Below, piece by piece: positions 2,600 to 62,983 of a DNA stretch of 64,000 nt. This DNA is from Cladosporium halotolerans (taxonomy: Eukaryota), in NCBI RefSeq assembly GCF_011745625.1, contig NW_027191461.1, forward strand, positions 310,001 to 374,000, written 5' to 3'. The notes under the pieces are model-generated. The model made no database searches, had not been told where the DNA came from, and was given only the letters and a program-made list of their open reading frames with translations. Within the stretch, counting starts at the first letter, position 1. Each line of letters opens with the position of its first letter. A program made the position numbers and the translations under genes.

Positions 2600-3541
2600 T
2601 CAAGCCTCGGTGATGTCGGACTCGCTGTAGATGCAGGCCTCGCTGGGGCCGGAGCCGATCTTGGAGGGCTCCTCGTCGTTGTTGTCGGTGCCCTTGTACT
2701 CGGTGCAGATGTCGTCGACGCCGCTGGCCTTGATGTTGGAGAAGGTGGCGGTGTCGCCGTAGTTGGAGTTGATACCTGCAGGTTTCCGTCAGTTGGCTGA
2801 TCTTGGTTTCAGATAGGGGTTGTCGAGTCGAGAGTCGACTTACCGGCAAGAGCCTTGCCCTCGGAGGCGGTGATGTCGTCGAAGATGACGTGGCGCTCGT
2901 ACATGCTGTCGCAGTTGCCGCAGCTCCTGTAGAGCTTGCCGAAGTTGTCGACGGTGAAGCCGGAGACGGACATGGTGCCGGCGCCGTTGTGCTGGAGCAC
3001 CTTGTCCTCGGCGCCGAAGGCACCGCCGCCGGTGATGGTGGTGGTCTGGCCGGCGTCCTGCTCCTTGATGGTGAAGGCGTCCTCGCAGACGGCGGACCAC
3101 CAGACGTTCTCGAGCTTGCATCCGCCGCCCTTGCAGTGGACACCCTCGCCCTGGTTGGGGCCGATGATCACGTTGGAGAGGGTGGCGCCTTTCTTTTCGG
3201 GTTGTCAGTACTGGATTTCTAAACAGGAGTCCTTGGATGCTCACCTCGAGGATGAAGACGGCGTCGCTGTCACCGCCCTCGGACTGACCACCGCACTCGG
3301 TGCCGCGGTCGTAGACGAAGATGCCACCGTCGAAGGACTCGCCGGCAGCGACGGTCTGGACAGCGTCGAGGGCAGAGCTGCCAGAGGAAGCCGGAAGGCT
3401 GCCGCCGGACTCGGCTCTGCTCAGAGTAGCCGCAGCAGTGGTGGTGGGAGCAGCGCTGCCGGTGCTGTTGCTGGCCCTGCGGTGGAAGCGGGCGTTGGCG
3501 CCGAGCGCGAAGGCAAGGAGTGCGATCTGAGTGTACTGCAT
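2600..3541 (-). CDS. Secreted pectate lyase, family PL3; exons 3541-3245, 3192-2844, 2775-2600 (273 aa)
   Basis: Signal peptide plus Ser/Thr-rich linker; motifs [66 protein letters not shown]. Splice sites join in frame. Confidence 0.95.
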
Positions 3542-3862
3542 TTTGACGAGCTGGGTGTTGCTGGAAAGATTGATCGAGAGTCGAAAGACGAGTGCAAATG
3601 GATCAGAGCGACCTGTCGCTTACTGAGAGATAGATTGAACAAGAGAATGCGATTGAAGTGAAGACCTGCCGAGTGAAAGAGTAGCAACACCTACACAGAC
3701 AGCCATTCTTATACAAATCTGCAGATAGGGCATCTCCTGTAATGGGCATGACCGGACGAGGTCCCACACGCAGTGACATGCAGTCTCCATGCCGCCGATC
3801 GAGCGTCTCGACCGAAGAGCCCTCCCCCAAAACGTTCATGCAGTATCGTCTGAGACGAGCTT

Positions 3863-3914: not shown

Positions 3915-4450
3915 GACGATCTTGATATGTACCACTACTAGCTGTAGTGCTGAACCCTAATGGCGCCCGGGAAGCCCTCGTGTCTGTGATCATGGCTGTG
4001 CAAGCGTGGCCCCAGGATCAGCGCTAGGGCTCCGGCGACTGGGCGTTTCATCAGGGCCACGCGACGAACCGAGCCCGGCGAACCACTCTGTGTTTCATCT
4101 ATCTGCTGCACTGCGAGTCAAGAGTTGGCGGGCATTGGGAGAAGCTTATTCATAAGTCCCAACGTTATCTAGTCGTCACAGTACAATCGCCGAAGAACAG
4201 GCAGTCTGGGATTGATTCGTGGGGAGAAGATTCTTCCATGGCAAATTTTCTGGCTGTGCGAGATTCTATCACCACGGCGGCGCAGAATGTTCAATTATCG
4301 TTCGATGTCTGAGACGAACGTTGACTAATTACGAAAAAAAAGAAAAGCCTGAATGCTCTGTACAATCACCGTCGGATGCGTCGTAATCCCAGTGCCAACC
4401 CTTGCATAACACCCTCGACGAGCAATCAGTGTGCCAGGCGATGAGGGTGG

Positions 4451-4653
4451 CTAGCGATCAGCTACCACAGGCTACCTGGTCGTGCAAGACCGTCCCTTTA
4501 ACGAAGGAACGGTCTGCACAACTAGGTCTCTGCCTGTGGTCCCACTGATCGCTAGATGATCAGCTACCGCTGGCAAGCCTACTGTGCCAGATCATCCCCA
4601 ATAACAAAGGGACGATCAGCACAGCAGGCCACCACCAGCGGTCACACTGATCA
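4451..4653 (-). other. Tandem pair of homologous long hairpins (4451-4555 and 4557-4653) downstream of the YTA7 stop codon; candidate structured RNA element
   Basis: Multi-segment inverted repeats in each unit, clear sequence homology between units and compensatory substitutions (details in findings). Confidence 0.8.
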
Positions 4654-4677
4654 GACTCGCACCCGCGCCGGCCCCAC

Positions 4678-7600
4678 TCATATACTCTCCCTCCTCTGCA
4701 TCTCCAAAAACTCCTCTTGGCTGGCCTTGTGCACATTTTGGCAGTCCTCGATGTCCTTGACAGACTCGTTAAAGGCGGACTCCACAGCCTGGACAACAAG
4801 GTTGCGATTCCACTCTTCCCTGGTGTTGTAAATCGCGTACATGATGTGTGCAGAGACTTGCTCGAGCTGTTCGACGGTCAAGCCTGACGAACGAGTCGTG
4901 AGTGCGCGGTGGAGCTGCTCGACGTACTTCTCCTCGAGCACGTACAGGTTTTCAGCCTCCTCCTGCGTGTTCGTATTGAGCAGGTTGTGAATGGAGGCGC
5001 GGTGGGGAGGCGGGCCCATTGGCTGAGAAGACTGCGAGGCCGGCTCCTGAGAGGATTGGAAGTTGGGCTCCTGGGTGTCGGGAAGCTGACTGCCACCGCT
5101 AGTGGGCGCCAGAGTCGAGAAGTCAGGGTGATCGCCTCCAGGACGCATGCTGTTGGACTGCGGGGTGTTGTTCAAGTACGGACCACTAATCCGACTGCGA
5201 TCGCTTGTCTTCTGACCAGAAGTTGTGGTAGATGCGCTGTTCTGGTACTCGGTAAACTGCGAGCCTTGCGCAAGCTGCGTGTGCGCGCCCCTCTGCGAAT
5301 GCTGTCCTTGCGTGTTTTGCTGGCCGTAGCTCTGTGGGTACGCATGGTCGTTCGGGCTGACGTCGTACATGCCCGAGTCTTCATTGACCTTCGAGGGCGC
5401 TGTAGAGCTATTCGCGAAGATGGAGCCGCCATTAGGGTTGCTCGAGTCGATAGAGTTCGAGCTGGGTCCTGGCAGCCTGCTAGGCGTGACCGGCAACAGC
5501 TGGTTGACTCCGGGAATCTCTTGACCGAGTACCACAGGTCCAGATCCTTCAGTAGTCGTGTGAGAAGCGTTCTGCGGCGGCACGTTGGGTACAACGGCAG
5601 ACACATTCTGTCCCTGTGCCTTAGCCTCGGCCTCCTTGCGCAGGCGCTCGCGCTCGCGCTGCTGCTCGCGCTCATAGAGCGCCACACAATCCAGCAGTAA
5701 GGCCGGGTTCTGCTCCTCAATCCCGGCCATGTCGACATCAACATTGGCATGCAGCTCATTGGCCTTGAGCGTGCGTTGCTGGTTGCCCAAAGTCTTCGCA
5801 TCCTTGGCTAACCGCTTGATGTCCGCGACAAAGTCCTTCGGGCGCTTGTAGTACCCGTTCGATAGGCGCTGCTCAATGACCACCAAGTTCAGGTTGTAGT
5901 AGAACTTCCCTGTTGCAGTCTCGCGCAGGCCTTGGACGCCCTTTTCATCCGTGTCGACCTCGTACGGCCGGAAGAGAGCTTGCTCTTGGCGCTGCTCTTC
6001 GGTGAGATCGCTGGACAGGATGTTGGGGTCCTGCTCGTCGTAGAGGTATCGGATTAGAGTGTCGTCGATGGGCGAGTCCTTGAAGATCCTGTATTTCTTC
6101 ATCTGCTCCATCACGGGCTGAATTAACATCTTCAGCTTGTTCAACGTCTGCCGATCCTTCTTCTTCTGCAGCTTCTCCGCTACCTTGGGGTTTTGCTCGA
6201 CGGTCGGCGCAGGCGGCGGTGCGGGTGCCAGAGGCAGCTCAGCCAGCTTTCTGCGCTTGCGCTGCGACGGGTCGGGGAACTGCTTCGGTGACTTGCGCAC
6301 CATGTCGACGACCTGAGTGAAGTACTCCTCGCGCGCGGCTTCGTTCGGTCGCGAAAGCTCGTACTGGTTATTCAAGGAGTGGCCGAAGAGATTGCGCACC
6401 ATCTCTGGGTTGAGCTTCTGATCAAGGTCGTCCAGCTCAACGTATCCAAGCAGGAGGATAGGCTCGGCAGGGTGAATCGCGCGTAGCAGGCCGGTGAATG
6501 TGCGACGTGCAGAGTCCGACAGCGCCTCGTACCAATTCTGCACATCGGGGATGTAGATGATGCTTGGCTTGTGGCGTCTAACTTCCTCGAACAGCTGAAC
6601 GATCACGGACTCCTGAGACTGTATGGATGTTAGCGGGATTCAAGAATAAGGCGGAATCTTGGAGCACTTACTCTTGTATTGTCGGCCATCACAACACTCA
6701 GACCAAAGTCCTGCACATGCAGACCCTCGAGCTTTGCCATTACAGCGCCGGCCAGGTAGTTCTGACCCATTCCCGAGGAACCCTTGATCAGCAGACGCGG
6801 CCTAAAGATGCGCGATGATTCAAACTCTCGCTGCATTTCGTGGCGCTCGAAGCCGAACTCGTCGTCGCGGTCGTCGTACATGGCCTCTTCAAGCGCAGTG
6901 ACCTTTCTCTTGCGAGGAATGGACTTCCCCATGAGAGCGAAGATCTCGGACAGCGGCAGGCGCAGCAGCGGCTCAACGCTCTTCTTCAGCGGCGCAGCCG
7001 TTGATGTGGTCGATCGAAGGCTCGAGGGCACGATCCTGTCAATAGAGAGCATGAAGTCCTTGGCAAGAACCTTGATCTGCGCAGGGTCGATCAGGAGCTT
7101 TTCCTTGCTCGAGTAGATCTGCGGGTATGTGCCCTGCACAGCATTGAGGGCGGCTTCGACACACAAGGCGCGGAGATCGGCACCACCGTAGCCCTTCGTG
7201 AGCGACGCGAGCTTGTCTTTGAACTCGTCTGCGAGAGGAGGGTCCCAGCCTCTGGTGTGGATGTTGATGATGGCCCGTCTTGCCTCTTGGTTCGGGAGCG
7301 GGAAGTAGAACTCTCTGTCGAAGCGTCCAGGACGCCTGAGCGCAGGGTCCACCGAGTCCGGCCTGTTGGTGGCGCCGAGGATGATGACCTGGCCTCTGCT
7401 GTCCATGCCGTCCATGAGCGCTAGCAGTGTCGATACAATCGACGCGTGGATCTGGTCTTGCTTGCTTGAACGTACTGGAGCAAGGCCGTCGATTTCGTCG
7501 AAGAAGATGATGCTGGGCTGGTTCTTCTTCGCATCCTCGAACAGGATGCGCAGCTGCTTTTCCGCTTCGCCGACCCATTTGCTGAGGGCATCAGCGCCCT

Positions 7601-9551
7601 TGCGCACGTAGAACGTGACCTTCTTGCCGTGCGAGCTGATGCTGTGCGAAAGTGCGCGCGCAAGCATCGTCTTTCCCGTTCCAGGTGGGCCATGGAACAG
7701 GACTCCGCTGGGCGGCTTGATGCCCAGCTTCTGGTAGACCTCCGGGTACAGGAGGGGCAGGGAGCACATCTCTTTGAGCTGGTCGATATGACCATCGAGA
7801 CCACCGACATTATCGAAATTGATGCTCGGGTCTTCTCCCAGCGAAGAGGTGTCTGCCAGCGGTTGCTTGTCCTTGACTCTACCAAGGTCAGGCGGTCCGC
7901 CTCCTGGTCCGGTAAGTGCGCCCGGTTTCTGCATGGGCCTGTTAGGCGTCATGCTCGTGGCGCCGGGGAGAGCTTGGGCTCCCCCCTCGTCGTCCTCACT
8001 GCTGTCGGAGTCGGCGCCGCCCGCCAACTCCTGCTTCGCAGACCCACCGAGGACGGCCGGAGGATCTCCGTATCCGCCGAAAGGACCACCGGTCGAGAAC
8101 AGGCTCCTGTAGCCGTCTCTGTCGGCCCTGCGCCTTGACTTCGGCGCGGCCACGGGTGCCTGCTGCGACCCGACCGGTTGGTAGTCGGCCACCGCATCGT
8201 CCTGCTCCTGGTCGTTGTTAGTGAACTCAGCGAGCGACCGCATGCGGTAGTCGACCTTCTCCTTTCTGGCGCGGAGGGATTTCCTCTCGGCCTCGTATGT
8301 GATGGTGGCAGGCTTGCGCCTGCCACCGCGCTTCTTGCGCTTCTCTTCGTCTTCGAGGTCTGCTGCCTCGTCGGCGATCTCGTCGGAGTCCAGCTCCGAG
8401 TCTGTCGAAGGGCGTCGGGACTTGCCCGCCTTTCCCTTGGTGTTGCGGGCTGAACGCCGCGCATTGGTGCTCGCCCTGCTTATTGGGCGAGAGGACCGAA
8501 GTGACTCATCACCGCTAGTGATGGCCACGTCGGCCTCTTCCTCGCCCTCAGCAGGGTCGGGCTCGAAGTCGCTGCCAGCTTCGGCGGCTGCTGGCTTGTG
8601 CGACTTCGTGGCGCCGCCGGCGCGCCGCGGCCTCTTATGGGCCGCTTCTGAGTTCTCGGGCTCCATCCGAGAACTGCGCTTTCTGCTCCCGCCCTTGACG
8701 ATGGGAGCATCATCGTCGTCGTCTTGCGACTCCTGAACGATGTGCTCCATGGTGATCTCATCGTCGGCAGGAGCAGTGCCGGCGGCGCCTTGGTGCTGTG
8801 GAAGCAGTTGCGAGGCTTCCATCGATTCTTCCAGGATCGCGCTGGGCATGTTACGCAGACCCTTGGTTCCTCGGGTTGGGCGCTTGGTTGCGCCCGGGGC
8901 CGGCTCTGGTGTCGCTGTGCCGCGTCGTGACCTGGTGCCGGTGGCAGGCAGTGCCTGCAGTGGTTCGTCATCGGATCGCGAGATCCGGCTGCTTCTGCGT
9001 GTGCCAGTCATGGCTGGCGTGGGTGCGCGCGTTATGATGCTCTTGCTGCCGGTGCGCGATCTGGTGGTGCGGGCAGTCTGCTGCGGCGCTGTGTTGTTGG
9101 CGCTCAAGCTTGGGACTTTGAGCTTGACAAGCAGTTGTGCAGTCGCGGGCGTGCGCCTTTTGGCGGGCGCAGTGTCTGGGTCGCCGTCCGCGCTGATGAG
9201 GTCGTCGTCGTCTTCGCCGCTTGCCTCCTCGTACTTGATCGCTTTGCGCGCGGCGGTTCTCACGCTTCTGCCTGTGCGCGGGTTGCGCACCATGTCTTCC
9301 TCGTCGTCTTCGTCGTCTCCGTAGCTCTCCTCCTCTGCGTCGTCCTCCTCGGTGTCGTATTCAATCTCGTCGTCTGAGCCGACGTAGCTCTCCTTCCTTG
9401 AGCGCTTCTTCGCGCGCGTGCCGCCCTTGCTCTTTTGCGCCGTGCGCTGCGGGCGCTTTGCTGGTGGTGACTCGGCGGCGCCGTAGTCCAGGTCGTCGGA
9501 GTCGGAGCGGTTGGGGTCGAAGTCTTCCAACTTGCGCTTGTAGCGAGCCAT
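4678..9551 (-). CDS. YTA7: AAA+ ATPase with bromodomain-like region (Yta7/ATAD2/Abo1 histone chaperone); exons 9551-6672 and 6618-4678
   Basis: Acidic N-terminus; FDNVGGL, Walker A GPPGTGKT, RKGADALSKWVGEAEKQLR, Walker B IIFFDEIDG, ATNRPDSVDPALRRPGRFDREFYF; degenerate second AAA domain (RPRLLI..GMGQ.Y); IEQRLSNGYYKRPKDF. GTAAGT...GCTAAC...CAG intron. Confidence 0.95.
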
Positions 9552-11280
9552 GGTGATCTCGCGCTGTGTTGTCGTGTCGCTGGGAAAGGAAGACGCAGGA
9601 AGCGGAGAGAATTTTGTCGGCGGGCAGGTCGTGAGCAGGCAGGCACAACAAGCGGGAACGCGGGATCTTAGCCCAATTGGGTTGGTGCTTGAGCAAGTTG
9701 TTGTCACGAGGGCGCATTCATGCGCGTCCCCTGCTTTCGAAGTCGAACTCGACGGCGTGCATCAACGACAGCGTGAAGCAGCGCAAACAATGGCACGAGC
9801 AACGCGATACAATGCTAATTCAAAATATAGCATTTACAGAACGCGAAATAATCGATGGAGGAGTGCTGGAGGCGCGTCGACGTCGATGGGGTCGCTTTAC
9901 CAGCGGGAGTCGTAACTTTGCGATACCAGCGCCAAGCGCGCTAGCGTCACTAGCGTCGCCGCGCAGCGTTTACAATTTTGGGGAAACAGAGAAGCCGATA
10001 CACGCCCAAGAAGAAGGCAACAATAATCACGGCAACGAATAATTAATTGTTCACAAAAAGATACACAGATGATAGCGCAATTATACCAAGCCACTACCGG
10101 CTTTTTTGGAGTCAACCGAGCCCTTTTCAATGTGATCTCGTGTTTTTACAACACGAGCATATCGTCGCCTCCCAAAATATCTCCGTCCCTCTCCACCTCC
10201 CCACATCGACCACATGGTACAGGGACATACAGCTTATGAGCTTAAGTGGACGTCGCCTGCCTGTTCCTGACAGGGCTGATCGACCAAACCACACGTGACC
10301 CCGCTTCGACAGCCCGGTCTAACTGGAATTCGTGCCCGTGCAAGTACCTGTGAGAAATAGATGCTACAGTACGTTTGCGCATTTGCTGTTATTTGCACTG
10401 GCCAACGAGACCCAATGGAGGATGATGCGCAACGCGAAAGTATTGTAGCCATGATGCGTACAATTTATTTGAAAGAGTCTTGATTTCTTCACCGCATCTC
10501 GACGGCCACGGTCGAGAGGAAGACCACGAACATTACGGTAGTAGCTTCAAAGTTGGTTGCGATTAATATACGGATGCGGGCGTGGTGATGTTCGAAGACT
10601 CTCTCGGGCCGTGAAGCATCGAGCTCAGGACGATGCCGAAAGGTGCGGCGCGCACGTCGCGGGATCTGCGTGCTGTGTTGATCACGTGATGTCTCAAAAG
10701 TCGCGATAACCGGCCGAAGGTTGCTGCCCTTTGCGGTCCACCTTCAGCATGAGTGCTTCTCTGCGCTGTGCAAAATGTATAGGTGCATATAGAAGCATTC
10801 GAAACTCTCAAAAGCTAGGGTGCCATCCCATAGCTCATGAATGGAATGACGTTGGACGCATGGTGCTGAGATTGAAGGAAGCTTGGCCATGGTACACTTT
10901 TGTTACAGCTCTATCAAAGTCAAAGCATTCCTTCCTGAACGAGTCGACAGAACACCTTTTACGCTATGCCTCTTGCCGAACGAAAACCAAACGTAAACAA
11001 GCCCGAGCTATGGTCCAAGAAGCCACCCTGTAGGCTTGCTTATTCGTTCCAGAGCAACACTTGCTCGTTCCAAGCCAACCTCCGTTCTGTACTCCGTGCT
11101 TCGCTTGAACGATGTAGGCTGATGCGCGTGCTATGCTGCGTGACGATGTACCTGTTCTTGCTTTGATCGCTGCCATTCCCACCCGCTGTCGCTTTCCCAA
11201 CCTAACATCGCGAAGCACGGAACAAGGAACGGAAAGAGAAAATTACATACCCGTTTGTCATGTGATCATTGCGTAGGAAC

Positions 11281-61057: not shown

Positions 61058-62983
61058 CGCCCACGCGCTGCCGTGCGACTCGCAGGAGGAGTCCTGGCGC
61101 GCGCGAGGGCGGTGAGCGGCGTGCTTTCGCGGTCCGCCGTGCAAGTGGTTTGCAGCAGCGCGCGACGGGGCATGCCAGCGGCCTGACAGGCCGGGAGAGC
61201 CTGGCGGCGGGCGTGCACGGCTGGGCCCAAATACCTGCCTACAACCGTCTCCAGCTGCGGGCTGCCTGGCTACCTGGCGTGAGTGGAGGGCGCTAAAATG
61301 ACTTGCCAATTTCTCTTGCATCCCGCCCGCCACCAGCTGTCCCTCCTCCCACGGCCTCGCTACTGTACACGCTGACGGCGACCGCTCCGCTCGTGTATTC
61401 GCGGTGTCCGTCGCCGTGGCCGCGTCGCCTTGGGTCGGCCGGCTGGCGCGGACTGCGATGCACACAGGTGCAGGCCGGCCAAGGCGCTTGCGGGCGCGGT
61501 GGTGGTGGTGGTGTCTGCCCTGCCGGCACCACCGTCGCAGGGCAAGGCGCGCTGCTAATGCGCTGCGAGCCTGCACCACCCTGCCCACCCCCACGCTACT
61601 AAACTCAGACTGCGTCGCCGGCCGGAGGTCGTGCAGGCGGCATGACGGATGGTCTCACCATCCTTCGGCAACACCGCGCCCACGACTCCCACGACTCCAT
61701 GGGAGATGCGCGGGGTGCTCCTTCACTTCCTCCTGCTCCACTCGGCGTCTGCCCCGCAGCCGCTGCAAGCGAGCAGAAATGATGTTGTGCGACATGCAAG
61801 TCATGTGCCTCCAGGCGCAGCGCGGCTCTGGCAGGGCGGCCGAAGTGTTATGTACACACGCCAGCGATCGGTCGCTTATCGCATCTGCCCGCCCGCCAGA
61901 CTCCCCTAAGCCGACCCTGACTTCAGATGACGCCTTCGGGGTCCTGGCCACACGCTGCTGATGATCTTCACCGAAGACCCTTGCCACGCCGGCGCCCGAC
62001 GCGTCTCCTGCCACCCCGGGCAGATCCTCAGCCGCCCGGCGTTTGCACACGGTATAGACACACCCAAGACAGACTCATGTATGCATGTCGCAGACGCGCA
62101 AAACTTTTCTACCCGCCCGACCAACACCGGCTGCACGCTGCCCCTCCCCCCAGCTTCGCGCATGAATGCAAGCTGCGGCCTTGACGTTAGCCGCAGACGC
62201 GCTCCCAGACTCGCACAGCCAATCCAGCGCTCGCAATGCGGACGACACGCTGTCCGACGCGGCTACTGACAGCAGCGCTCCAGCCATCGCCAGTCTGTGC
62301 ACACACCGCTCGCATGCCGGCCTGTTGTGTTTGACGCCGCCGACTACCGCCGGACTAACTGCGGGGCCATCAAATATTTTCTCGTCCTATCAGTTGGCGG
62401 GGTCTCCGGTGGTATACGTGTGTCTCGACAGACAGCCCCTCCAGCGTGCCAGCGTACACAGGCGGATGGCGGGGCAGGTGAGGTCACACGCGACGGTGGC
62501 ACGCAGCCCCACGAGCTCTCCAGCACGGGGAGCGTGCTTTAGCGAGTCTGCCGCCCCTGACTCGCGTCGCTATAGCGCCATGTCAAACCCGAGCTGCCAC
62601 CAGATGCGCCATATCTGCCGAGCGATTGGGCCTTCGGCGAGCGGCCTCTGACGCCATGCTCGACGAAACGTGCAAGTCCCTTGGGCGGCGATGACCACGG
62701 CTTCGACTTCACCACCACTAACACTGTTCTTGGCGCGACTGCAACCAGATCGTCCAAGCGCTACTGTGTCGTTCGACCGACATGGTTAGCTATGGCATCA
62801 TGCTAAAGCGCGGCTTTAAGTCGACATACCGCCTCCAGCCTTGCCGCGCGATCACCAGGCGCTCTTTACAAGGCATCCCTGCGTATTACCACACCGATCT
62901 ATGAGGCTCTGTCGACCCTGAACCTACGCTGCGACCAAACCCTAAGGAAGGCAAGGGAGTGAGAAAAATAGTAATATGCCTCA

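What the first reader, a model, noticed from the sequence alone, without database searches (positions are those of the whole stretch)
4451..4653. Two tandem, homologous ~100-nt hairpins with compensatory base changes right after the YTA7 stop codon
Seen in sequence: unit 1 (4451-4555) pairs CTAGCGATCAG/CTGATCGCTAG, ACCACAGGC/GCCTGTGGT, ACCTGGT/ACTAGGT, GTGC/GCAC, AGACCGT/ACGGTCT and CCTT/AAGG around a TAACG loop. Unit 2 (4557-4653) pairs TGATCAG/CTGATCA, ACCGCTGG/CCAGCGGT, GCCTACTGTGC/GCACAGCAGGC, GATC/GATC and TCCC/GGGA around a TAAC-containing loop. The units are clearly a tandem duplication (both begin CTAG..GATCAGCTACC), yet they differ at four or more pairs where BOTH partners changed: C:G to T:A in the basal stem, A:T to G:C and A:T to T:A in the ACC stem, and C:G to T:A in the upper stem. 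The same 2x4 asymmetric internal loop is retained. Most remaining A/C mismatches become G-U wobbles on the minus strand, i.e. in the YTA7 3' UTR, starting ~25 nt after the stop. Inference: the structure has been maintained rather than the sequence. Candidates are an undescribed cis-regulatory RNA element on a histone-chaperone mRNA, a milRNA precursor pair, or a palindromic mini mobile element. I do not recognise it as any known RNA family.
Basis: partly seen in the sequence, partly recalled or inferred. Interest (0 to 1): 0.85.

Follow-up and report, generated by a model that had tools for sequence, protein, structure and literature searches.

The report
Twin RNA hairpins in YTA7 mRNA tail
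Two adjacent, related 100-base hairpins sit in the transcribed tail (3' UTR) of a chromatin-regulator gene of a Cladosporium-like mould and have kept their base pairing while their sequence drifted, so they are a credible but still untested new regulatory RNA element.

Summary
Units 4451-4555 and 4556-4653 each fold into a ~42-bp hairpin (z about -10). They are the best-folding 110-nt windows in the 64 kb. The units are about 72% identical. All 37 shared pairs stay paired, 6 through two-sided changes. Random placement of the same changes breaks about 9 pairs.

New here:
- A polyadenylated RNA contig places the poly(A) site at about 4276, so both hairpins lie inside the roughly 400-nt 3' UTR of the YTA7-like mRNA.
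- The mRNA-sense strand has 10 G·U pairs and the antisense strand 1-2.
- No second copy at 80% likeness or more lies in a 30-Mb contig set of the same genome or in the window.
- Rfam has no match.

Most likely this is an RNA-level, sense-strand structure, probably a double-stranded RNA target for an RNase III-type enzyme or binding protein. A neutral palindromic relic kept paired by template switching, or an old diverged MITE, is not excluded. No orthologous sequence from other species could be obtained, and within-species variants show no extra constraint. I rate it a new member of a known kind, of moderate interest.

The parts
4556..4653 (-). Hairpin unit 2, the 5' one in the mRNA. It has 40 pairs (33 Watson-Crick and 7 G.U), a 3x1 loop, a second 3x1 loop, one bulged U, and an 8-nt terminal loop that contains GUUA.
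   Evidence: Fold -69.9 kcal/mol, z -10.3. Pair list. Covariance-model hit of 101.2 bits on the minus strand against 22.6 bits on the plus strand. Covered by RNA contigs of X7 and X14.
4451..4555 (-). Hairpin unit 1, the 3' one in the mRNA. It has 44 pairs (41 Watson-Crick and 3 G.U), a 3x1 loop, a 4x1 loop, one A.C mismatch (4523/4478), one bulged U, and a 5-nt terminal loop CGUUA.
   Evidence: Fold -71.9 kcal/mol, z -10.8. Pair list. Covariance-model hit of 118.7 bits on the minus strand against 49.8 bits on the plus strand. In lineages X7 and X14 the A.C mismatch is a U-A pair (4478 G>A).
4276..4677 (-). 3' UTR of the YTA7-like mRNA, about 400 nt. The poly(A) addition site is at about 4276.
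   Evidence: X7 contig (record 10, minus strand) covers 4276-6082 and carries 26 non-templated T's before 4276 on the plus strand, which is a poly(A) tail. X14 contig covers 4252-6394. Folding the whole 402-nt UTR keeps both hairpins as separate domains.
4678..9707 (-). YTA7/ATAD2-like AAA ATPase gene (the start was not checked). It has a 53-nt intron at 6619-6671 and a stop codon at 4678-4680.
   Evidence: ORFs. Pfam AAA 5.5e-41 and a weak bromodomain match, E 8.4e-4, below the cut-off. 69% identity to a Cladosporium fusiforme protein, aligned to within 11 residues of the end. The intron is spliced out in RNA contigs of X14 and X17 (GT..AG on the minus strand).
4456..4468 (-). The 3' half of the basal module of unit 1. 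Its partner is 4539-4550. The same module in unit 2 lies at 4558-4570 and 4641-4652. It comprises the basal stem GAUCAG(U)/(G)CUGAUC, the 3x1 loop and ACC/GGU, and is almost invariant between the units.
   Evidence: 23 of 24 basal alignment positions are identical between the units, against 45 of 70 elsewhere (alignment A2).

Best explanation
The two hairpins are a sense-strand RNA structure carried in the 3' UTR of the YTA7-like mRNA and kept by selection at the RNA level. Each is a roughly 42-bp imperfect double-stranded RNA stem with conserved bulges and a nearly invariant base. The most likely mechanism is recognition by a dsRNA-specific factor. That factor would be an RNase III-family enzyme (a Dicer or an Rnt1/Pac1-type nuclease) or a dsRNA-binding protein. 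It would set the fate of the message (nuclear cleavage or decay, stability, or fail-safe 3'-end formation ahead of the next gene) and might release small RNAs as a by-product.

Shown: the hairpins exist; they are in polyadenylated mRNA; pairing was preserved through 6 two-sided and 7 G.U-mediated changes; the wobble pairs favour the sense strand; no dispersed copy at 80% likeness or more exists.

Inferred: that selection did this rather than a DNA-level mechanism; the identity of the reader protein; any regulatory effect.
For: 1. Transcription. A poly(A)-tailed contig of X7 covers 4276-6082. An X14 contig covers 4252-6394. X14 and X17 show the gene's intron spliced out, so these libraries hold RNA.

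2. Strand asymmetry. There are 10 G.U pairs in the sense stems. The antisense fold has 1 in-stem plus 1 at the loop. The one-sided binomial is 0.006 for 10 of 11 and 0.019 for 10 of 12. Unit 2 folds at -69.9 on the sense strand against -48.8 on the antisense strand. A cruciform or other double-strand DNA mechanism predicts no such asymmetry. The single sense-strand A.C mismatch is a U-A pair in the two other lineages laid.

3. Compensation. 0 of 37 shared pairs are broken despite 19 changed stem positions. The null expectation is 9.2 broken, and 0 of 200,000 trials did as well. Stems differ at 19 of 74 positions and unpaired columns at 10 of 23.

4. Architecture. Bulge and internal-loop positions are the same in both units. 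The base is 23/24 identical against 45/70 elsewhere, as expected for a protein-recognised junction.

5. Not a dispersed repeat. Only 1 of 16,459 contigs of X1 (30.1 Mb) lays on 4000-6800 at 80% likeness or more. The covariance model finds only the two units in 64 kb; the next hit has E 0.08.

6. Variants in other lineages. Three of four hairpin variants cost nothing or stabilise the sense fold: unit 1 goes from -71.9 to -76.5.
Against: - There is no cross-species evidence. The only 'covariation' is between two paralogous units in one genome. Orthologous DNA could not be obtained.
- Within-species variant density shows no extra constraint. In X14 there are 4 differences in the 203 nt of hairpins, 5 in the other 199 nt of UTR and 8 in 1,717 nt of CDS.
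- One variant, 4620 C>G, breaks a mid-stem pair without compensation and costs 3.7 kcal/mol.
- 1 destabilising change among 3 substitutions is not unusual: P = 0.20 when 435 of 609 possible substitutions destabilise by 1 kcal/mol or more.
- Template switching can create and repair hairpin arms without selection (PMC8794818).
- Strand-biased mutation in a transcribed region could contribute to the G.U asymmetry.
- The terminal loops are not A/UGNN tetraloops, so the best-known fungal RNase III rule is not met (PMC13183374 passages).
- No small-RNA or cleavage data were seen. The full-length contigs show that at least part of the mRNA keeps intact hairpins.
Confidence: 0.45

Rival explanations
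1. Neutral palindromic relic. A local inverted duplication or an old foldback insertion was duplicated in tandem. The arms of each palindrome have been kept complementary by DNA-level processes: replication template switching (quasipalindrome correction) or arm-to-arm conversion. The element is transcribed only because it happens to lie before the poly(A) site.
For: - Template switching is documented to create perfect stems and to produce apparent compensatory changes (PMC8794818, abstract and section 8 read). Search listings only: PMC8604942 and PMC13100816 for yeast.
- Variant density in the hairpins equals that of the rest of the UTR, and one uncompensated stem-breaking SNP is present in X14.
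- The element is known from only one near-identical group of lineages.
- The plus strand also folds far better than shuffles.
Against: - A double-strand DNA mechanism predicts equal numbers of G.U on both strands. The observed counts are 10 against 1-2.
- The asymmetric loops and the bulge have stayed at the same positions in both units instead of being erased by arm homogenisation.
- The basal module is far more conserved than the rest: 23/24 against 45/70.
Confidence: 0.28
2. Two adjacent insertions, or a tandem dimer, of an old, diverged palindromic MITE or foldback transposon family. Its other copies are now less than 80% alike and so escaped detection. The conserved termini are the transposase-binding inverted repeats.
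For: - Whole-length inverted-repeat architecture of about 100 bp.
- The termini are nearly invariant between the units while the interior is about 64% identical, as in MITE subfamilies.
- Unit 1 is bounded by CTAG/CTAG, so a TA duplication cannot be excluded.
- The copy search was limited to 80% likeness or more in one contig set and to 64 kb for the covariance model.
Against: - Only the source contig lays on the region, out of 16,459 contigs or 30.1 Mb.
- There is no copy in the window.
- An exact-termini pattern gives 0 matches in metagenome, prokaryote-genome and viral contig collections.
- Old decayed copies should have lost pairing, yet 0-1 of about 42 pairs per unit is mismatched.
- Young copies should have near-identical siblings, and none were found.
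- No direct-repeat duplication flanks unit 2 or the pair.
- Both other lineages carry the element, so no empty site was seen.
Confidence: 0.15
3. The hairpins are primarily precursors of microRNA-like small RNAs (milRNAs) that act in trans. The YTA7 mRNA merely hosts them.
For: - Stem length, bulge pattern and size fit hairpin small-RNA precursors.
- The only Rfam hits, though far below threshold, are miRNA-precursor models on the minus strand. The best is mir-2237 at 21.6 bits against a gathering score of 70, E 0.16.
- The sense strand is the better folder.
Against: - No small-RNA data were available.
- Weak matches to miRNA-precursor models are expected for any long hairpin.
- Intact hairpins persist in polyadenylated mRNA contigs.
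- The search of Cladosporium plus milRNA gave 10 papers; none of the 8 listed is about Cladosporium small RNAs, judged from titles and abstract starts.
Confidence: 0.1

Closest known systems
RNase III (Rnt1)-mediated decay hairpins in yeast mRNAs, e.g. BDF2 (PMC4169253 and PMC8594472: search listings and abstract starts; PMC13183374: passages read)
   Same: A stem-loop inside the mRNA of a bromodomain chromatin factor serves as a cis-acting dsRNA target that tunes the amount of message. It acts on the sense strand only.
   Different: - Rnt1 substrates are short stems capped by A/UGNN tetraloops and are cut 14-16 nt from the loop. They mostly lie in the ORF.
- Here there are two roughly 42-bp stems in the 3' UTR, with 5-nt (CGUUA) and 8-nt loops.
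- YTA7 is not mentioned in the main text of PMC13183374; its supplements were not opened.
- No cleavage has been shown here.
Fungal milRNA or hairpin small-RNA precursors (recalled; no paper read for this)
   Same: Roughly 100-nt imperfect hairpins transcribed by Pol II. They are plausible Dicer substrates.
   Different: - No small RNAs have been shown.
- The hairpins sit in tandem inside a protein-coding 3' UTR.
- No Rfam family is matched.
Palindromic or foldback MITEs of fungi, e.g. mimp of Fusarium (recalled; one search found no Cladosporium MITE description)
   Same: A roughly 100-bp element made almost wholly of inverted repeats, with conserved ends and a non-coding interior.
   Different: - There are no dispersed copies at 80% likeness or more.
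- There is no clear target-site duplication.
- Pairing is intact despite about 28% divergence between the units.
- The wobble bias is specific to the sense strand.
Hairpins created and maintained by replication template switching (PMC8794818)
   Same: Long stems whose two arms change together, with multi-base 'compensatory' patterns that need no G.U intermediate. Here that includes an A-U to U-A change.
   Different: That mechanism alone does not predict the 10:1 sense-strand G.U excess, nor the retention of identical bulges in both units.
DGCR8 mRNA hairpins cleaved by Drosha in animals (recalled)
   Same: Two neighbouring hairpins in an mRNA act as RNase III targets for dosage control.
   Different: Fungi lack Drosha. 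Those hairpins lie in the 5' UTR and CDS. This is an analogy only.

Membership tests
MITE / foldback transposon | Terminal inverted repeats | tested here: met
   Each unit is an inverted repeat over its whole length. This feature does not discriminate, because any hairpin meets it.
MITE / foldback transposon | Many dispersed copies in the genome | tested here: not met
   1 of 16,459 contigs (30.1 Mb) of X1 lays on 4000-6800 at 80% likeness or more. Only the two units are found in the 64-kb window by the covariance model and by the repeat search. Copies less than 80% alike elsewhere in the genome could not be searched, because no genome is held.
MITE / foldback transposon | Target-site duplication flanking the element | tested here: inconclusive
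   Unit 1 is bounded by CTAG...CTAG. A TA duplication there cannot be told apart from the palindrome itself. Unit 2 and the pair as a whole have no flanking direct repeat.
MITE / foldback transposon | Presence/absence polymorphism (empty sites) | tested here: not met
   Both other lineages laid (X7, X14) carry both units, and no joint skips them. Only 2 lineages were examined, and both are about 98-99% identical to the window.
Any Rfam family (including miRNA precursors and snoRNAs) | Covariance-model score at or above the family's gathering score | tested here: not met
   Across 4000-5000 there are 7 matches with E up to 10, all far below gathering. The best is mir-2237 at 21.6 bits against 70.
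H/ACA snoRNA | Two hairpins joined by an H-box hinge (ANANNA), with ACA 3 nt from the 3' end and pseudouridylation pockets | tested here: not met
   The hairpins are separated by a single nucleotide, there are no large symmetric internal pockets, and there is no Rfam snoRNA hit. The H/ACA definition is recalled.
Rnt1-type RNase III mRNA substrate | Stem capped by an A/UGNN tetraloop (PMC13183374, passages) | tested here: not met
   The minimum-free-energy loops are CGUUA (5 nt) and UUUGUUAU (8 nt). A UGUU tetraloop is possible in unit 2 only if an extra U-A pair forms. The specificity of the orthologous enzyme in Dothideomycetes is unknown to me.
Rnt1-type RNase III mRNA substrate / milRNA precursor | Enzyme-dependent cleavage products or discrete small RNAs from the stem | not testable with these tools
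   Only assembled contigs were available. No small-RNA or degradome data were seen.
Conserved structured cis-regulatory RNA | Structure conserved with covariation in orthologues of other species | not testable with these tools
   No eukaryote genomes are held. The metagenome protein scan confirmed 0 relatives: 60 pattern matches, none passing tblastn. The DNA pattern gave 0 matches. Only paralogous covariation between the two units is available: 6 two-sided changes.
3' UTR element of the YTA7-like mRNA | Lies between the stop codon and the poly(A) site of a mature transcript | tested here: met
   The stop codon is at 4678-4680. A poly(A) tail is joined at about 4276 in the X7 contig spanning 4276-6082.

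The most novel reading that the evidence does not exclude
The twin hairpins are a lineage-specific dosage-control module. A nuclear RNase III-class enzyme (Dicer-like or Rnt1/Pac1-like) recognises the invariant hairpin base and cuts the stems, so that the level of the YTA7 histone-chaperone/bromodomain ATPase message is set post-transcriptionally. This would be a filamentous-fungus counterpart of Rnt1-BDF2 in yeast or Drosha-DGCR8 in animals, possibly with small RNAs as a second output. It may also act as a fail-safe terminator protecting the pectate-lyase gene about 730 nt downstream.
Probability: 0.2. Interest if true: 0.7.

Novelty: new member of a known kind. Interest (0 to 1): 0.5.

Why it matters
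Structured cis-elements in the 3' UTRs of filamentous fungi are almost uncharted, and Rfam holds nothing like this one. This candidate has several unusually clean properties:
- It is proven to be inside a polyadenylated mRNA of a conserved chromatin regulator.
- It has two paralogous copies that serve as an internal covariation test.
- It has a wobble-pair signature specific to the sense strand.
- It has a sequence-invariant base that suggests a protein reader.

It occurs in a ubiquitous, easily cultured mould. Deletion with compensatory mutation, small-RNA sequencing and degradome mapping could quickly decide between a regulatory dsRNA module and a neutral palindrome.

It is also a useful test case for a general question. 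How much 'compensatory evolution' in hairpins reflects selection, and how much reflects template-switch mutation?

Tried and rejected
- **Whole-genome search of the window's own assembly.** No genome is held.
- **Orthologous YTA7 loci from metagenome contigs, using the C-terminal 642 aa.** 60 pattern matches, none confirmed by tblastn.
- **Exact-termini DNA pattern (23 specified bases, gap 60-90).** 0 matches in metagenome, prokaryote-genome and viral contig collections. This finds only copies whose ends are unchanged, and these collections hold little fungal DNA.
- **Earlier findings of this scan.** Nothing for this genome or sequence. A word search returned only prokaryotic and viral analogies, which I did not use.
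- **Gapless inverted-repeat finder.** It lists 19 pairs but misses these bulged hairpins altogether, so it says nothing about similar elements. I replaced it with the sliding-window energy scan.
- **H/ACA snoRNA reading.** Rejected: there is no hinge and no Rfam hit.
- **Repeat-induced point mutation (RIP) on one strand as the cause of the G.U bias.** Considered. One-sided differences between the units include both C/U and A/G alternations on the sense strand. RIP makes only C-to-T changes, so it can explain at most about half. There is no outgroup to polarise the changes.
- **X17 metatranscriptome contig.** It covers only 4665-4924 at depth 2.4. The missing cover over the hairpins is not evidence of anything.
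- **Depth differences between contigs of X14.** Not interpretable.
- **Test on population variants.** 1 destabilising change among 3 substitutions gives P = 0.20, which is uninformative.
- **Literature.**
  - Cladosporium + MITE: 17 papers, none of the 15 listed describing such an element by title or abstract start.
  - Cladosporium + milRNA: 10 papers, none of the 8 listed relevant.
  - YTA7 + hairpin + '3 UTR': 0 papers.
  - YTA7 is absent from the main text of the Rnt1 target survey.

Full report
**What is there**

The window is eukaryotic and fungal. The long minus-strand ORF pair 4678-6606 and 6630-9707 encodes an AAA ATPase with a weak bromodomain match. The best named relatives are YTA7/ATAD2-type 'TAT-binding protein-like 7' proteins of Dothideomycetes. 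The closest is a Cladosporium fusiforme protein at 69% identity. It aligns to within 11 residues of the C-terminus, which confirms the stop codon at 4678-4680. The next gene downstream on the same strand is a pectate lyase (Pfam PF03211, 5.3e-56; ORFs 2809-3204 and 2840-3619). The element therefore lies between two tandem minus-strand genes and begins 24 nt after the YTA7 stop.

**Check of the observation**

Both units fold as single long hairpins on either strand:

| Unit | Strand | Energy (kcal/mol) | z |
|---|---|---|---|
| 1 (4451-4555) | minus | -71.9 | -10.8 |
| 1 | plus | -66.5 | -11.9 |
| 2 (4556-4653) | minus | -69.9 | -10.3 |
| 2 | plus | -48.8 | -9.4 |

No shuffle of 200 did as well in any of the four folds.

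I scanned the whole window with 8,520 sliding 110-nt windows on both strands. The mean was -30.0 kcal/mol with sd 9.2. The two lowest energies are on unit 2 of the minus strand, at only 55-61% G+C. The other strong folders in the list are 70-81% G+C coding or low-complexity stretches.

The units are homologous, with 68 of 94 aligned positions identical. The RNAalifold consensus has 37 shared pairs. Of these, 24 are unchanged, 7 changed on one side (all still paired through G.U), 6 changed on both sides and none is broken. The two-sided changes are C-G/U-A, A-U/G-C, A-U/U-A, U-A/C-G, A-U/U.G and C-G/U-A.

With only two sequences the built-in shuffle has little power; 6 of 500 shuffles reach the observed values. 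I therefore placed the same 19 stem differences (15 of them transitions) at random. This broke a mean of 9.2 pairs and never fewer than 1 in 200,000 trials, against 0 observed. The structure was derived from these two sequences, which inflates the contrast somewhat. It cannot account for an effect of this size. Sliding the 3' partners by 1-3 columns drops pairing from 100% to 22-51%.

**Is it transcribed?**

Yes. Contigs of four public runs were laid on 4000-6800.

- X7 has a minus-strand contig covering 4276-6082. It ends in 26 T's (plus-strand view) that are not in the genome. This is a poly(A) tail added at about 4276.
- X14 has a contig covering 4252-6394. In X14 and X17 another contig skips 6619-6671 (53 nt, GT..AG on the minus strand). 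That is the gene's intron, so these libraries are RNA.

The 3' UTR therefore runs from 4677 to about 4276 (roughly 400 nt) and holds both hairpins, about 175 nt upstream of the poly(A) site. Folding the whole 402-nt UTR keeps the two hairpins as separate domains.

**Is it a dispersed repeat?**

X1 holds the whole stretch without a single difference and may be the source of this DNA. Of its 16,459 contigs (30.1 Mb, read whole), exactly one lays on 4000-6800 at 80% likeness or more. The same call reported pieces as short as 37 nt for another run, so short copies would have been seen.

- The direct and inverted repeat search of the window finds only the unit 1/unit 2 relation.
- The shared 11-mer occurs only in the two units, plus one 1-mismatch chance hit (3 matches against 1.0 expected).
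- A covariance model built from the two units finds only them in 64 kb with filters off. They score 118.7 and 101.2 bits on the minus strand and 49.8 and 22.6 bits on the plus strand. The next hit has E 0.08 and lies inside the CDS.
- An exact-termini pattern gives 0 matches in the metagenome, prokaryote-genome and viral contig collections.

Copies less than 80% alike elsewhere in the genome remain unsearched, because no genome is held.

The MITE reading also has a logical problem. Old copies should have lost their pairing, yet only 0-1 of about 42 pairs per unit is mismatched. Young copies should have near-identical siblings, and none was found.

**Strand asymmetry**

Every non-Watson-Crick opposition in the stems but one is a G.U on the minus (mRNA-sense) strand. 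There are 3 in unit 1 and 7 in unit 2. Each of these is an A.C mismatch on the plus strand. The plus strand has one in-stem G.U (4478/4523) and one at the loop. That gives 10 of 11 or 10 of 12, with one-sided binomial P of 0.006 or 0.019. About half of the ten sit at helix ends, where they are weaker evidence.

The single exception is private to the window's lineage. X7 and X14 both read A at 4478, which makes a U-A pair in the RNA and lowers unit 1 from -71.9 to -76.5 kcal/mol.

A cruciform or any other double-strand DNA mechanism predicts symmetry. An RNA, or a single-stranded sense-strand constraint, predicts what is seen. One-strand RIP could mimic part of it. However, the one-sided differences between the units include both C/U and A/G alternations, and RIP produces only the first kind. 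Transcription-coupled mutation bias could contribute. As far as I recall it is modest.

**Evidence that tempers a functional reading**

The three lineages available are about 98-99% identical. In X14 there are 4 differences in the 203 nt of hairpins, 5 in the other 199 nt of the UTR and 8 in 1,717 nt of CDS. The hairpins therefore evolve about as fast as the rest of the UTR.

Effects of the four hairpin variants on the sense fold:

| Variant | Effect |
|---|---|
| 4478 G>A | Stabilises |
| 4487 A>G | Absorbed by shifting a bulge, no cost |
| +C after 4493 | Absorbed by enlarging the loop, no cost |
| 4620 C>G (X14 only) | Breaks a mid-stem G-C without compensation, +3.7 kcal/mol |

435 of 609 possible substitutions destabilise by 1 kcal/mol or more. 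One destabilising change among three substitutions is therefore unremarkable (P = 0.20).

Replication template switching is documented to create stems and to generate apparently simultaneous compensatory changes (PMC8794818, abstract and section 8 read).

No orthologous sequence from another species could be obtained. The key covariation test is still open.

**An unexplained detail**

The base of the hairpin comprises the stem GAUCAG(U)/(G)CUGAUC, the 3x1 loop and ACC/GGU. It is 23/24 identical between the units, against 45/70 for the rest. This fits either a protein-recognised junction in the RNA or transposase-type terminal repeats. It is the best remaining argument for a mobile-element origin.

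**Mechanism**

I commit to a sense-strand dsRNA cis-element in the YTA7 3' UTR, with confidence 0.45. The most plausible readers are an RNase III-class enzyme or a dsRNA-binding protein.

The closest worked example is Rnt1-mediated decay of the yeast bromodomain factor BDF2 mRNA. For PMC4169253 and PMC8594472 I saw the search listings and abstract starts; for PMC13183374 I read passages. The resemblance is functional, not one of membership. Rnt1 substrates carry A/UGNN tetraloops, whereas the loops here are CGUUA and an 8-nt loop. Both contain GUUA. YTA7 is not mentioned in the main text of that survey.

Rfam has no family for the element. The only hits are sub-threshold miRNA-precursor models, which is expected for any long hairpin.

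Rivals and their confidences:
- Neutral palindromic relic maintained by template switching: 0.28.
- Old diverged MITE pair: 0.15.
- Trans-acting milRNA precursors: 0.10.

**Novelty and verdict**

I found nothing in print. One search gave 17 papers and one search gave 10; none of those listed describes such an element. One search gave 0 papers.

The element is real, transcribed and structurally maintained, and it is not a recognisable family. Its kind is known: a hairpin cis-element or small-RNA precursor in an mRNA, or a palindromic relic. Its function is untested, and it is known from only one group of near-identical lineages. I rate it a new member of a known kind, with interest 0.5.

Noticed in passing
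window 6619-6671 (-): A 53-nt intron of the YTA7-like gene (GT..AG on the minus strand) is spliced out in RNA contigs of two independent runs (X14, X17). It joins the ORFs 4678-6606 and 6630-9707.
   Followed up: partly
window 2809-3619 (-): A pectate lyase gene (Pfam PF03211, 5.3e-56) with a signal-peptide-like N-terminus in the ORF 2840-3619. The change of frame between the two ORFs suggests an intron. Its start lies about 730 nt downstream of the YTA7 poly(A) site, in tandem orientation.
   Followed up: partly
window 4252-4276 (-): The X14 RNA contig runs 24 nt beyond the poly(A) junction seen in X7. This may be a second poly(A) site or read-through.
   Followed up: no
window 61396-61595, both strands: A very G+C-rich stretch (74-75%) with folding energies of -60 to -64 kcal/mol per 110 nt. 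It ranks just behind the hairpins in the window scan. It is probably a composition effect in coding or low-complexity sequence.
   Followed up: no
window 8446-8570 (-): A long hairpin-like fold inside the YTA7 coding region (-60 kcal/mol). It is also the best non-self hit of the hairpin covariance model (17.2 bits, E 0.08). It is probably chance.
   Followed up: no
window 5195-5324 and 5624-5683: A second X7 contig (record 11) matches two short CDS stretches with 29 and 9 differences and has 296 unrelated letters between them. X17 contigs match 5620-5660 with 5 differences each. These are probably homologous genes of other organisms, or a paralogue, in those libraries.
   Followed up: no
window 4300-4800: The sampled 31-mers of this stretch are held by runs under at least 12 different coded organism labels and by several metagenomes or metatranscriptomes (20 rows, 17 studies). 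The fungus, or a close species complex, is therefore widespread or a common contaminant.
   Followed up: no
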